From Anaerolineae bacterium (GTDB lineage: Bacteria > Chloroflexota > Anaerolineae > Epilineales > Epilineaceae): a stretch of 15,541 bases of DNA. Where the stretch lies: NCBI GenBank assembly GCA_029262755.1, contig JAJCYU010000001.1, positions 1-15,541 of the forward strand, in the 5' to 3' direction. A program made the position numbers. Positions 3,001-6,000 of this stretch are shown in pieces (positions within the stretch are counted from its first letter, which is position 1; each line of letters opens with the position of its first letter).

Positions 3001-6000
3001 GTCCGGGGTGGCCGGCGCAGCTTGGCCCGCCGCTGCGTCGGCCGTGTCGGACACAGCGTCCGAGGCGGTCCTGCTCGCGTTGGACGAGCGCGAGCCGGGC
3101 GCGCTCGAGTCGGCCGAACTAGCGTTCGTCGCACCGGGGTCGTTCGAGCCCGAGCCCAACGCGCCCTCGTCGGCGGCGCTCGTTCGGGGATCGCTCGCGA
3201 TCCGTGACCCCGTCGCTGGCGGCTCGGCGTCGTCGCAACCGACTGCGGCAAGCGAGAACGTGAGTGCGACGATCGCGATCCCTGTTGTTCGGGCGATCGT
3301 AGTACGGGTGATCGTGGTGCGGGTGATCGTGGTGCGGGTGATGCATCGTTCGCAGCTCGACGTCCGCGCTTCGACGCCCCCTCCGGCCGCTCGTTCGTCC
3401 ACGTGACTCGGCTCCTTGTCAGGCTCGGGCCCTGATCCGGGCCCTTTCTATGTTGCGGCTTGAGGACGCCGATCGCGGCGACGGGTACCGCGATTCAAGA
3501 TTTGTAGCGTCTACGCTGGGCGACGACTGTTCCGATGACGGAGCCGACTACGTCGTGACTCCCATGCGTAGCGGGGTTCGGTCGAACGGACGTATAGCAG
3601 TAGCAGTGCCCGTGCAGGTAGGGTCGCAGCGCGAGATTGGTACGGGACGCGCTCCCGGTCGATCGCGTATCGAGCGCACGCGATCGCGATCGCAGGATCA
3701 AGCCCAAGTCTACGAGCTGCGAGCAAATGGTCGGATTCCGCAGTCAGCCGGCTTGCGACGGACCGTCCCCACGCTAGGATTGGCGCCCGCCACGGGCAGA
3801 CCGTCCGTGCGGTCGTCGATACGCAACCGCCAAGTACGTGAGTTCGGCATCGCCCCCAAGGGCAGGCGTGAGTCGTTGCACGGCGGATTGCGAGCGACGA
3901 ACGATCGTCGCGGAATCATGATGCCCTCCTGCTCGAGCATTCGGCCTCGCCCTGACCCGCGAGCCTACGCCATAGAACGCACAAGTCGCTACCCGCCGGC
4001 GACGGTCGCGCAGCGCACCGTGTCGTGCGTGTCCCCCACACACCCAGGTGACCCTCCATGTCCTACGTTCCCTCGACGCACGACCGCCGTTCCGCGGGAC
4101 GACCCGCGTGCTTCGCGACCGTCCTCTGCGCGATCGCCCTCGGTGCGCTGGCCCTCGTGCTCGCCCCGGCGCAGCCGCGCGCCTCGGCCGCGCCGCCGGC
4201 GCCCGCGCCCGTTCCCGCGGGCCCACGGCTGATCGACGCCGCGGCCGTGCGGGGCACGATCGCCGCAGAGGGTCGCGCGCCCGTGATCGTGCTCCTGCGC
4301 GATCCCGCGCCGCGGCTTGCGGCGGACGCGGTGCGGCTGCCCGCGGTGGCTGCGGCGCAGTCGGCGGTGCTCGCGGCGCTGCCCGCGGGAGCGTGGCGCA
4401 CGACGCGCCGCTACGAGCTGCTGGCGGCGTTGGCCGGTGATGTGGACGGGCGCGGCCTGGCCGTGTTGCTCGGCCATCCGGGGGTTCAGTCCGTCGAGCC
4501 GGATCGAGAGAACGTGCCGATGGGGCCGGTCCTTTCGCCGTCCATGCTGCGCGAACAGCGTCCGTTGATTGGCGTCGACCGCGTCTTCGAGGAGTTCGGG
4601 CTTTCGGGCGAGGGCGTTCGGGTTGCGGTGATCGACACGGGCATCGACGCCGATCATCCGGATCTCGAGGATGATCTGATCGATCAGCGCTGCTTCTCCG
4701 CGCGCGGCGGCTGCGGCTCGAACAACGCCACGGAGGGGCCGGACGCCGATGACGAGGACGGCCACGGCACGTCGGTGGCAGGCATCATCACCAGCAAGGG
4801 CGTCAACGCGCCCCTCGGTATTGCGCCGGACGCGGAGATCGTCGCCATCCGCGTCTTCGACGACCGGACGTCCGCGCGCTCGAGCGACATCGTGGCCGGC
4901 TTCGACTGGCTGGAGCGCAACCGGCAGCGGCTGAAGGTCAAGGTGGTCAACATGAGCCTCGGTTCACGCGATCCCTTCGTCGGCAACTGCGACAACGACG
5001 ACGCGGCCCGAGCCGAGGCCGTCAAGCGGCTTGTCCAGCGCGGTGTGGCGGTCTTCGCGGCGAGCGGCAACCAGGGCTCGGACAACGGGATGGCGGCGCC
5101 GGCCTGCATCCGCGACGTGATCGCCGTGGCGGCCAGCTACGACGGCACGCTCGGGCGCATGCCGCCCAACGGCGAGTTCGGCGGCTCCGGCTGCTTCGAC
5201 CCCACGAGCAGCGCGATGACCATCACGTGCTTCAGCTCGATCAACCGCTCGCTCGACCTCGTCGCCCCAGGAGCGTGGACGACCGTGCCGCAGATGGGCG
5301 GCGGGGCACGCCAGACGGCGGGTACATCGAACGCGTCGCCCGTGGCGGCGGCGGTGGCGGCATTGCTCATCCAAGCGGAGGACGGAATGCGCCACGCCGA
5401 GGTGCGGCGGACGCTGACCAGCACGGGCACCAACGTGCGCAAGCTCGAAAACACCCAGGATTTCCCACTCATCGACGCCTACGCGGCGGTCGCATCGCTC
5501 GGCCTGCCGACGGCGACGCCCGATGGTCCGCCGCCCACGACTACACCGGCGCCAACCGACACGCCCGCGCCGAGCGCGACGCCGACGGCAAGCGCGACGC
5601 CGACGATCGCACCGACGGGCGCCCCCTTGCCGAGCGCGACCGCCGTCCCGACCGATGCGGCGGCGACCGCGACGGCGTCGGCAACATCGCCGCCGCAGGA
5701 CACGCCGGAACCGACGCAGCCGAGCCCGGATTCGGCGCCGATCTACCTGCCGATCGCACGCACGGAGTAGCATGCGCGACGTGGCCGCGAGGCCGCACGT
5801 CGACTAGCGCCCTTCCGGGTGAAACCCCCTCTCACGCGCGCCGTATTACCTCCTGACGGCCCGCAATCGCGGGTCGCGTTCTACCACAGGCGAACACCTC
5901 GAACGACCGGGCTCAACCGCTCGGCCGGGGTTTGCTTCGCCGCTACGGGAGGCTTGGATGGGCGGCTTGATGGCGGTTCTGTTCACCGTACTCGTTCCTG

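What a model noticed while it worked through the whole genome (the two positions that open the first line are those of the whole stretch)
4058..5770. C-terminal YLP-box marks about 120-140 secreted proteins (4% of the proteome)
139 proteins end in [YFWH][LIVMF]P[LIVMYFWAH][LIVMATS] followed by only 2-12 residues (typical: ...PTPTP...IYLPLAxR-COOH), e.g. the S8 protease g00006. They are large secreted proteins (S8, M14, C25, M60 peptidases, LVIVD and FG-GAP propellers, VWA, DUF11, CotH, two selenoproteins). Unlike LPXTG, PEP-CTERM or PGF-CTERM signals there is no membrane helix after the motif, so it is a distinct, dominant export or anchoring tag of this organism; NCBI's model flags one protein only.
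Evidence so far: 139 of 3451 proteins with a complete C-terminus carry the motif in the last 17 residues against 16.6 expected from its internal frequency; the motif ends 2-6 residues from the end in 111 of 139. 94 of 112 with both ends complete have an N-terminal hydrophobic run, against 1226 of 3119 overall; P+T make up 27% of the 30 residues before the motif against 12% background; 66 have no Pfam family; median length 678 aa. First seen in calls 26,31. ncbifam.tsv has NF053834 'YLP-box putative sorting motif-containing protein' for g02819 alone. Homologs of the new selenoprotein family in other Epilineaceae keep the tag. No gene family is enriched next to YLP-box genes apart from VWA (13 of 85). 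Among 14 [...]
(Added by a program. Inside this text positions count along the whole contig: contig position 1 is position 1 of the stretch shown here. "Call 12" and the like, gene names such as g00115 and contig names such as C1 are that model's own, and its searches are not shown. The text may have been shortened before it was handed on; [...] marks where a part breaks off. The agent that wrote the report below was given it as the finding of a first reader that could run no searches.)

Follow-up and report, generated by a model that had tools for sequence, protein, structure and literature searches.

The report
YLP-box surface tag on secreted proteins
A nine-residue peptide (Tyr-Leu-Pro core) ends well over a hundred secreted proteins of this Chloroflexota bacterium and most likely holds them at the cell surface; the tag is already catalogued, but what reads it is still unknown.

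Summary
The window gene 4058-5770 is an S8 subtilase ending PIYLPIARTE. No helix or domain is hidden behind the stop codon.

The tag is the "YLP-box", which NCBI already models (NF053834, NF050076) and this scan has met in at least 40 genomes. Those models catch only 11 and 14 sites here.

New here:
- **Position.** The box is not only C-terminal. It also sits at a fixed distance before a disulphide-closed C-terminal VWA domain (39 proteins), just after signal peptides (19), and inside Pro/Thr linkers.
- **Anchoring role.** Distant S8 homologues carry Cys, helix and Arg-rich tails in the same place. A small cohesin protein with the tag is conserved beside dockerin genes.
- **Sortase.** It is not the general reader: a closed genome with no sortase match has 8 of 8 model matches ending at a stop.
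- **PorU-like C25 peptidase.** It tracks box-rich genomes (14 of 15, against 8 of 136) and itself carries the tag. Two box-bearing lineages lack it.
- **Scale.** The density here is not unique.

The reader of the tag is unresolved.

The parts
4058..5770 (+). Gene for a 570-aa secreted S8 subtilase carrying the tag (stop codon included)
   Evidence: Open frame and translation. Pfam PF00082 E 2e-45. Kept as a gene by my codon-based caller, score 144.6.
4058..4198 (+). N-terminal signal-peptide-like region (basic start, hydrophobic run CFATVLCAIALGALALVLAP, then ASAA). The end coordinate is approximate.
   Evidence: Read from the translation. Passes my crude hydropathy rule. No signal-peptide predictor was available.
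4607..5437 (+). Peptidase_S8 catalytic domain (residues 184-460)
   Evidence: Pfam hmmscan, profile positions 1-276 of 288.
5486..5737 (+). Pro/Thr/Ala/Ser-rich low-complexity linker (about residues 477-560)
   Evidence: Translation. Genome-wide, P+T is 27.2% in the 30 residues before the box against 12.3% background.
5738..5764 (+). YLP box, PIYLPIART (positions -2 to +6 of the 9-residue motif). Here the Arg stands at +5.
   Evidence: Translation. PSSM score 17.7 bits, the best in the protein.
5765..5770 (+). One further residue (Glu) and the TAG stop. Nothing follows in frame that looks like a helix.
   Evidence: Read-through test over all tagged genes.

Best explanation
**What it is.** The YLP box is a nine-residue linear recognition peptide with consensus [R/T]-[ILVA]-[YWFH]-[LM]-P-[LWIV]-[ALVST]-x-[R/K]. 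It is displayed on flexible Pro/Thr linkers of proteins that are exported by the ordinary Sec route.

**What it does.** After export, a factor outside the membrane reads it, and the protein is kept at the cell surface (sorting or anchoring). It needs no membrane helix. It works at the extreme C-terminus, its commonest place, but also in front of a C-terminal VWA domain and behind a signal peptide.

**Most likely reader in this genome.** The PorU-like C25 cysteine peptidase (G000:C304:12860-16063). It would bind or cut at the box much as PorU handles the C-terminal domain of type IX secretion cargo.

**Shown:** the motif, its syntax, its positions, its cargo, the lack of a helix, and the co-occurrence pattern.

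**Inferred:** Whether attachment is covalent is unknown.
For: **1. Real, peptide-level signal.** 136 observed against 13 expected, with conserved flanks outside the regex and 136 distinct DNA versions.

**2. Exported cargo behind linkers**.

**3. Same slot as classical sorting signals.**
- The two closest homologues of the window protease (48-49% identity) keep a PT linker plus an [LV]YLPK tail.
- Many more distant S8 homologues end in Cys, a hydrophobic helix and an Arg-rich tail, for example P0007, P0010, P0016, P0021 and P0039.

**4. A conserved tagged cohesin protein.**
- A 185-aa signal-peptide, cohesin and YLP protein in G000 has a 189-aa homologue in G076 (31% identity, E 8e-18, aligned through the tail).
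- Both lie near dockerin genes.
- In G076 a neighbouring cohesin protein ends in a helix and a basic tail instead.
- In cellulosome systems that slot is filled by a wall anchor (recalled knowledge).

**5. Position independence** (box counts at a PSSM score of at least 12 bits).
- 148 C-terminal, 39 before VWA, 19 after a signal peptide and 68 other, against 29 in reversed sequences.
- PT-rich flanks in 44-77% of each class, against 63 of 1345 random positions.
- Post-signal-peptide and linker boxes also occur in G012 and G044.

**6. PorU-like peptidase.**
- Pfam C25 at E<=1e-20 is found in 22 of 151 phylum genomes. That is 14 of the 15 with at least 9 NF050076 matches and 8 of the other 136.
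- On 22 genomes that I picked beforehand by box count, full-length C25 is in 9 of 11 box-rich and 0 of 11 box-poor.
- A control cargo family, DUF4397, gives 5 of 11 against 1 of 11.
- The G000 and G076 proteins match NCBIfam 'T9SS sortase PorU' over about 710 residues: E 2.3e-80 and 5.3e-74.
- The His and Cys of the catalytic pair are invariant in 9 of 9.
- 7 of 9 carry a box themselves. PorU likewise keeps its own C-terminal domain (recalled).
Against: **No direct evidence.** There is nothing on location, cleavage or attachment.

**PorU-like is not necessary.**
- G012 and G061 (one family, each 91% complete) and G044 (96% complete) have no C25 or PorU match beyond a CHAT protein and a partial hit.
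- Yet G012 and G044 show 7 of 11 and 5 of 7 model matches ending at or within a few residues of a stop.
- The pattern 'PorU-like only where boxes are' is also what a tag-dependent cargo would give.

**The PorU match is weak as membership.** The scores (250-271 bits) are below NCBI's cut-off of 420.

**Kinship limits the statistics.** Related genomes are not independent. The C25-positive box-rich genomes fall into about five families.

**Cleavage is not always possible.** 31 of 136 proteins end exactly at the Arg, so cutting after it cannot be obligatory.

**No conserved partner.** No neighbouring gene family is enriched.

**Crude methods.** Gene calls and the signal-peptide rule are my own rough ones.
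Confidence: 0.4

Rival explanations
1. Non-covalent docking peptide. The box is never cut. It binds as an extended strand in a hydrophobic groove of an abundant surface receptor (a wall-bound or membrane-bound protein, possibly a VWA-type or other adhesive domain), like a miniature dockerin.
For: - Works at the N-terminus, inside linkers and at the C-terminus. This suits binding better than C-terminal transpeptidation.
- Both faces of the peptide are hydrophobic and it is flanked by basic residues.
- The spacing between box and VWA domain is fixed: a gap of 10 residues in 27 of 39 here, and of 8 or 10 in 64 of 73 public homologues.
- AlphaFold gives the linker-box stretch block pLDDT values of 73-85 although it has no secondary structure. 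This hints at packing on the domain.
Against: - No receptor was found.
- The VWA cassette is not universal. At E<=1e-25 the profile matches only 1 of 5 box-rich genomes from other families.
- I could not see model coordinates, so packing of the box on VWA is not shown.
- Nine residues is short for stable anchoring of 1000-aa enzymes.
Confidence: 0.25
2. Processing site only. The box marks where a protease trims tails, pro-peptides or the VWA cassette to mature or release the enzyme, with no role in anchoring.
For: - Variable 'leaving groups': 2-12 residues, or a roughly 200-aa VWA domain.
- A conserved basic residue that would suit an Arg/Lys-specific clan CD peptidase (gingipain specificity is recalled).
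- Many cargo proteins are proteases.
Against: - 31 of 136 end at the Arg, with nothing to remove.
- Trimming 2-6 residues has no obvious purpose.
- Homologues carry true anchoring signals in the same slot.
- The tagged cohesin protein argues for tethering.
Confidence: 0.15
3. Collapsed sortase signal. L-P-x-[A/S/T] is an LPXTG-like motif cut by one of the genome's sortases, and the helix has been lost.
For: - Formal likeness of LPx[AST] to LPXTG, plus a basic tail.
- G000 has 3 sortase matches.
- In one family (G099, G048, G060, G126, G144) a sortase gene lies 1-2 kb from the PorU-like gene (coordinates).
Against: - G076, a closed 2.6-Mb genome, has no PF04203 match at E<=0.001. Yet 8 of 8 of its box matches end at a stop.
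- G012 and G044 also lack sortase matches.
- Sortase is present in 110 of 151 genomes whatever their box count.
- Thr is a minority at the fourth position (12 of 136) and Gly is not conserved after it.
- G000 has its own classical LPxTG, helix and basic-tail substrates.
Confidence: 0.03
4. Not a functional tag: a compositional or gene-calling artefact, or a structural end-cap of linkers.
For: - Short degenerate motif. NCBI's models also ring in 9-11 of 14 unrelated control genomes.
- My gene caller is crude.
Against: - Tenfold excess at true ends under two counting schemes.
- Conserved flanking positions.
- Absent from a same-class relative: 2 found against 3.1 expected in 400 kb.
- Kept in homologues.
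- Reversed-sequence control: 29 against 263 at 12 bits or more.
Confidence: 0.02

Closest known systems
NCBIfam NF053834 (ultrashort_CTERM) and NF050076 (sort_motif_YLP), 'YLP-box putative sorting motif-containing protein'
   Same: Same core (aromatic-Leu-Pro, hydrophobics, basic residue) at the extreme C-terminus of exported Chloroflexota proteins. Both models find sites in this genome.
   Different: - This genome's version prefers Ala/Ser/Thr at +4 and Trp at +3, and Arg rather than Lys.
- The models find 11 and 14 sites, against at least 136 by direct count, and miss the window protein.
- The models describe a C-terminal motif only. Here the box is also found before VWA domains, after signal peptides and in linkers.
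- No paper was found: 0 hits for 'YLP-box', and none for the accessions or model names. The only 'YLP motif' hits listed were unrelated eukaryote papers.
Type IX secretion C-terminal domain (CTD) and its sortase PorU (Bacteroidota)
   Same: - A C-terminal signal without a membrane helix on large secreted hydrolases and adhesins.
- A PorU-like C25 peptidase is present, tracks the tag across genomes and carries the tag itself.
   Different: - The CTD is a folded domain of roughly 70-100 residues (recalled). The box is 9 residues.
- The host phylum is generally described as lacking an outer membrane (recalled), and other T9SS parts were not sought.
- PorU-like is missing from two box-bearing lineages.
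- Scores are below NCBI's PorU cut-off.
LPXTG cell-wall sorting signal and sortase (Gram-positive bacteria)
   Same: Pro/Thr-rich wall-spanning linker before a short Leu-Pro motif, with basic residues after it. Same kinds of cargo.
   Different: - No hydrophobic helix.
- The motif differs at the cleavage positions.
- Sortase is absent from a box-bearing closed genome.
- Classical LPxTG substrates coexist in G000.
MYXO-CTERM, PEP-CTERM, PGF-CTERM and GlyGly-CTERM signals with intramembrane sorting enzymes (Haft, bioRxiv 10.1101/2023.06.07.544157; abstract seen in a search listing only)
   Same: Short C-terminal tags that mark many unrelated secreted proteins of one lineage. Homologues of the window protease carry Cys, helix and Arg tails of this general kind in the same slot.
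   Different: All of those have a transmembrane helix and are cut by membrane-embedded enzymes. The YLP box has none and also works away from the C-terminus.
Anchoring scaffoldins of cellulosomes (cohesin plus SLH domains or an LPXTG signal; recalled knowledge)
   Same: A small secreted cohesin protein next to dockerin-bearing enzymes.
   Different: The anchor module is replaced by the 9-residue YLP box.

Membership tests
YLP-box (NCBIfam NF053834 / NF050076) | Aromatic-Leu-Pro core with hydrophobic and basic residues within a few residues of the C-terminus | tested here: met
   Window protein ends PIYLPIARTE. 136 of 3194 proteins against 13 expected.
YLP-box (NCBIfam NF053834 / NF050076) | Score above the curated cut-off of the NCBI models for the window protein | tested here: not met
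   No hit for the whole protein at E<=1 or for its last 23 residues at E<=10. HMMER's filters drop most such short matches. Elsewhere in the genome, 11 sites pass NF053834's 10 bits and 2 pass NF050076's 15 bits.
YLP-box (NCBIfam NF053834 / NF050076) | Carried by exported proteins of Chloroflexota, after low-complexity linkers | tested here: met
   Signal-peptide-like N-termini in 80 of 113. P+T 27% before the box. Same-phylum genomes share it.
LPXTG / sortase sorting signal | Tripartite signal: motif, hydrophobic helix, basic tail | tested here: not met
   Tails of 2-12 residues. No helix even on read-through: 3 of 146 against 53 of 3000 controls.
LPXTG / sortase sorting signal | A sortase is present wherever the signal is used | tested here: not met
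   G076 (closed genome, 99% complete) has no PF04203 match but 8 of 8 box matches end at stops.
T9SS CTD / PorU system | PorU-type C25 sortase encoded in the genome | tested here: inconclusive
   NF033707 E 2.3e-80 at 270.6 bits, below the cut-off of 420. Catalytic His and Cys are invariant. Absent from box-bearing G012, G061 and G044.
T9SS CTD / PorU system | Folded C-terminal domain of roughly 70-100 residues as the signal | tested here: not met
   The conserved element is 9 residues and is preceded by a disordered PT linker.
T9SS CTD / PorU system | Outer-membrane translocon and shuttle proteins (Sov, PorV and others) | not tested
   Not searched for.
PEP-CTERM / MYXO-CTERM / PGF-CTERM class | Transmembrane helix after the motif and an intramembrane sorting enzyme | tested here: not met
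   No helix. G000 does hold one PEP-CTERM-like protein and an exosortase-like gene, which are separate from the box set.

The most novel reading that the evidence does not exclude
Chloroflexota, generally described as single-membraned, run a PorU-type sorting system that is independent of type IX secretion. A PorU-like C25 cysteine peptidase reads a 9-residue helix-free YLP box on 4-6% of the proteome and cuts at it or transfers the cargo onto the cell envelope. In some proteins a whole VWA domain is the leaving group. This would be a new class of protein sorting and a natural ultrashort ligation tag.
Probability: 0.2. Interest if true: 0.85.

Novelty: new variant of a known kind. Interest (0 to 1): 0.55.

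Why it matters
**An unexplained route.** If the box is a surface-sorting tag, it directs roughly one protein in twenty of this organism, including most of its large secreted hydrolases, propeller proteins and adhesins. The route matches no described mechanism, because there is no membrane helix and no folded signal domain.

**Ecological relevance.** Filamentous Chloroflexota are major polymer degraders in sludge and sediments (recalled knowledge). How they keep exo-enzymes on their surface is an open question.

**Testable leads.**
- The PorU-like peptidase is a concrete candidate, and the sortase result removes one.
- The position data narrow the mechanism to recognition of a linear peptide outside the membrane.

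**Possible use.** A nine-residue natural tag read by a soluble-domain enzyme would also interest protein engineers.

**Annotation.** The current NCBI models miss more than 90% of the sites in this genome.

Tried and rejected
- **Hidden helix or domain by stop read-through or frameshift: rejected.** A helix-like stretch in 3 of 146 read-through frames against 53 of 3000 controls. A VWA match within 900 nt downstream in 3 of 146, all separate genes.
- **Sortase as reader: rejected as general**.
- **VWA cassette as universal receptor: rejected.** The profile A1 at E<=1e-25 matches only G036 among five box-rich genomes.
- **Archaeal-type (SipW-like) signal peptidase, found next to the PorU-like gene in G076: no link.** Present in 7 of 11 box-rich and 8 of 11 box-poor genomes.
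- **Neighbour-family enrichment within two genes of tagged genes: nothing convincing.**
  - The one 5-of-5 family is a set of FG-GAP-like (by eye) paralogues, four of them in tandem on contig C32.
  - The VWA group is itself mostly tagged.
- **DNA repeat as the source of the motif: rejected**.
- **The search for related loci with alignment A1:** failed for lack of a conserved stretch.
- **Literature:** no paper on the bacterial YLP box was found in three searches.
- **AlphaFold model of the linker, box and VWA cassette:** gave no secondary structure for the box, and I could not inspect contacts.
- **Foldseek:** only shows an ordinary matrix-type VWA fold.
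Full report
**1. What is in the window**

Positions 4058-5770 (+) encode a 570-residue protein. 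It has four parts:
- a basic and hydrophobic N-terminus typical of Sec export;
- a Peptidase_S8 domain at residues 184-460 (Pfam E 2e-45);
- a Pro/Thr/Ala/Ser-rich linker of about 85 residues;
- the ending PIYLPIARTE, followed by TAG.

NCBIfam gives only sub-threshold subtilase matches. It gives no YLP-model hit for the whole protein or for its last 23 residues.

**2. Is the genome-wide claim true?**

The genome (5.06 Mb, 428 contigs, 66.8% G+C, 84% complete) was laid in the script box. No gene caller was available, so I wrote a codon log-odds caller. It gives 3496 genes, 3194 with a complete C-terminus.

- **Main count.** The tail is 2-6 residues in 108 of them and never 0 or 1.
- **Count free of gene calling.** Over all 14,183 six-frame ORFs of 150 aa or more, 154 carry the motif against 33 expected.
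- **Positions the regex did not constrain.** I/L/V/A stands before the aromatic in 124 of 136, R or T two residues before it in 60 of 136, and Arg at +6 in 63 of 136.
- **Consensus.** [R/T]-[ILVA]-[YWFH]-[LM]-P-[LWIV]-[ALVST]-x-R.
- **Carriers.** They are long (median 700 aa against 327). They have a signal-peptide-like start in 80 of 113, against 1094 of 2916 overall. P+T is 27.2% before the box, against 12.3% background.
- **Cargo.** I ran Pfam on a random 40 of the 121 tagged proteins with both ends. It gave 21 with families: S8 twice, M14, S9, PLD, GDPD, beta-lactamase fold, FG-GAP, LVIVD, NHL, PD40, DUF11, DUF4397, PPC, VWA, cohesin and others. Nineteen had none, and one was a false positive, a UbiA membrane protein.
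- **Peptide, not DNA.** All 136 box DNA sequences are different and synonymous codons vary.

I did not check the two selenoproteins.

**3. No hidden helix**

I read through the stop of 146 tagged genes. A helix-like stretch appears in 3, against 53 of 3000 control genes. A VWA domain lies within 900 nt downstream in 3 of 146, each as a separate gene.

The genome also has ordinary helix-bearing signals: several LPxTG or MPEAG proteins with a helix and a basic tail, and one PEP-CTERM-like protein with an exosortase-like gene. The box is therefore a separate system.

**4. It is a known motif**

NCBI's library holds two tiny models described as 'YLP-box putative sorting motif': NF053834 with 10 positions and NF050076 with 11.
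- In six-frame searches of this genome they give 11 and 14 matches at E<=10. That is under a tenth of the real set.
- They also ring in 9-11 of 14 unrelated control genomes.
- Earlier notes of this scan report the same tag in at least 40 other genomes, always as 'catalogued, mechanism unknown'.
- I found no paper on it.

**5. New: the box is not only C-terminal**

I built a position matrix from the 136 sites and scanned all proteins. At 12 bits or more it finds four classes:

| Class | Count |
|---|---|
| C-terminal boxes | 148 |
| Boxes just before a VWA domain | 39 |
| Boxes shortly after a signal peptide | 19 |
| Other | 68 |
| Reversed-sequence control, whole proteome | 29 |

Pro/Thr-rich flanks are found in 74 of 148, 30 of 39, 11 of 19 and 30 of 68 of these classes, against 63 of 1345 random positions.

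The pre-VWA class has a fixed design: linker, box, 3-5 residues, Cys, VWA domain with an intact DxSxS metal site, Cys, end.
- The gap from the box to the first Asp is 10 residues in 27 of 39.
- A profile of 35 such cassettes, run against 1.84 billion representative proteins, returned 150 top hits. Of these, 105 end in such a VWA domain.
- 73 of the 105 have the box within 30 residues upstream, at gaps of 8 (22 cases) or 10 (42 cases). The junction is therefore conserved well beyond this genome.
- AlphaFold folds the cassette well (mean pLDDT 91.7). The linker and box have no secondary structure but block pLDDT values of 73-85.
- The fold is an ordinary matrix-type VWA domain.

Boxes after signal peptides and before linkers also occur in two other genomes, G012 and G044. 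Whatever reads the box therefore recognises a linear peptide in a flexible linker, not a free C-terminus or a membrane-stalled segment.

**6. Evidence that the box anchors proteins**

*Homologues of the window protease.* The two closest (48-49% identity) keep a PT linker and an [LV]YLPK tail. Many more distant S8 homologues end instead in Cys, a hydrophobic helix and an Arg-rich tail. That is a classical sorting signal in the same slot.

*A tagged cohesin protein.*
- G000 encodes a 185-aa protein made of a signal peptide, a cohesin domain and a YLP tail. A dockerin gene lies 1.7 kb downstream.
- G076, a same-class genome of another family, has a 189-aa homologue (31% identity, E 8e-18, aligned through the tail).
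- That homologue sits in a cluster of dockerin-bearing enzymes and further cohesin proteins. One of those ends in a helix and a basic tail instead.
- In cellulosomes this position is held by a wall anchor (recalled knowledge).

Both points are inference by analogy, not proof.

**7. Who reads it?**

I first ranked 151 genomes of the phylum by NF050076 matches. The tag is patchy.
- Fifteen genomes have at least 9 matches, and most have 0-3.
- Most same-class relatives of G000 are poor.
- In direct counts on samples, G099 has 8 terminal boxes in 380 kb (1.9 expected) and G036 has 7 in 400 kb (2.1 expected). The same-class G043 has 2 in 400 kb (3.1 expected). G000 has 154 in 5.06 Mb (33 expected).
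- The scale seen here is therefore not unique.

*Sortase.*
- PF04203 is present in 110 of 151 genomes whatever their box count.
- G076, closed and 99% complete, has none. Yet all 8 of its model matches end directly at a stop, and more tagged genes turn up on inspection.
- Sortase is not the general reader.

*PorU-like C25 peptidase* (a lead from earlier notes).
- I picked 22 genomes beforehand by box count. Full-length C25 (E<1e-80) is in 9 of 11 box-rich genomes and 0 of 11 box-poor ones. The other two box-rich genomes have only weak partial hits, and one box-poor genome has a hit below the cut-off.
- In the whole sample, C25 at E<=1e-20 is in 22 of 151 genomes. That is 14 of the 15 box-richest and 8 of the other 136.
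- A control cargo family, DUF4397, gives 5 of 11 against 1 of 11.
- The G000 and G076 proteins match NCBIfam 'T9SS sortase PorU' over about 710 residues, at E 2.3e-80 and 5.3e-74. These scores are below the curated cut-off.
- His and Cys of the catalytic pair are invariant in 9 of 9.
- 7 of 9 end in a box themselves.

*Against PorU-like.*
- The weak hits in G012 and G044 are a CHAT protein and a partial domain.
- The PorU model finds nothing in G012, G061, G044, G138 or G120.
- G012 and G044 clearly use the box.
- PorU-like is therefore not necessary. The pattern would also fit a cargo that depends on the tag.

*Other candidates.*
- The VWA cassette is not universal.
- A SipW-type signal peptidase lies next to the PorU-like gene in G076, G002 and G015 but shows no link overall.
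- No neighbouring family is enriched.

**8. Verdict**

The tag is the catalogued YLP-box in a divergent local version that NCBI's models mostly miss.

The most likely function is retention of Sec-exported proteins at the cell surface, through recognition of a linear peptide outside the membrane (my odds about 0.6). Simple docking and mere processing are the live rivals.

The tallies include two genomes marked unpublished (G038, G145). No specific claim rests on them.

Noticed in passing
G000, e.g. C262:1852-4335, C250:5970-7784, C185:952-2778, C306:3292-5130 (not in the window): About half of the C-terminal VWA cassettes carry a second ultrashort tail after the last Cys: C-P-x(2-5)-[F/Y/D]-W-[G/P]-x-R, for example ...PCPPSRFWGNR and ...PTGRHDWGARWP. 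It is another aromatic-plus-Arg ending of unknown meaning.
   Followed up: no
G000, many genes of about 600 aa, e.g. C250:5970-7784, C266:8673-10559: A large paralogous family has this design: signal peptide, a short two-Cys hairpin (...lGe.vtVtLtl.g.CP), a first VWA domain, a middle domain ending FPVPEVEV, a PT linker, the YLP box and a second VWA domain. The cassette HMM finds 150 VWA domains in 95 proteins. By eye, the first VWA looks inserted into an Ig-like domain, as in pilus tip adhesins.
   Followed up: partly
G099:C7:102625-104993; G048:C1:280944-283306; G144:C2:318045-320410; G060:C65:41221-43586; G126:C241:19403-21790: In one family of the phylum the PorU-like C25 gene and a sortase gene lie 1-2 kb apart in all five genomes sampled (coordinates).
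   Followed up: no
G076:C1:1220575-1224829; G002:C14:257-4239; G015:C525:6005-13519: An archaeal-type (SipW-like) signal peptidase I gene lies next to or near the PorU-like gene in three genomes of two families. Across genomes the peptidase family shows no link with the box.
   Followed up: partly
G000:C32:7550-14910: Four tandem paralogues of FG-GAP-like (by eye; no Pfam scan run) secreted proteins, with a fifth on C256, end in ...[VIL][LF]xGP[VIL][VI]R. This is a box-like ending with Gly-Pro in place of Leu-Pro. They are flanked by YLP-tagged genes.
   Followed up: no
G000, all 136 tagged genes: Stop codon TAG follows 78 of 136 tagged genes, against 1433 of 3194 overall. At the box Leu, codon CTC is rare (5% against 35% genome-wide) and CTA is common (17% against 5%). 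Unexplained.
   Followed up: no
G000:C307:302-3127 and G000:C141:15144-15920: One protein ends VPEPGT, helix, RR (PEP-CTERM-like). A 258-aa protein looks, by eye, like an exosortase. Several LPxTG or MPEAG proteins with a helix and a basic tail (three in tandem on C376) show that classical sorting systems coexist with the box.
   Followed up: no
G000:C237:36914-42769: A 1951-aa protein carries both a dockerin domain, about 190 residues from its end, and a YLP tail (TIFLPLVQR).
   Followed up: no
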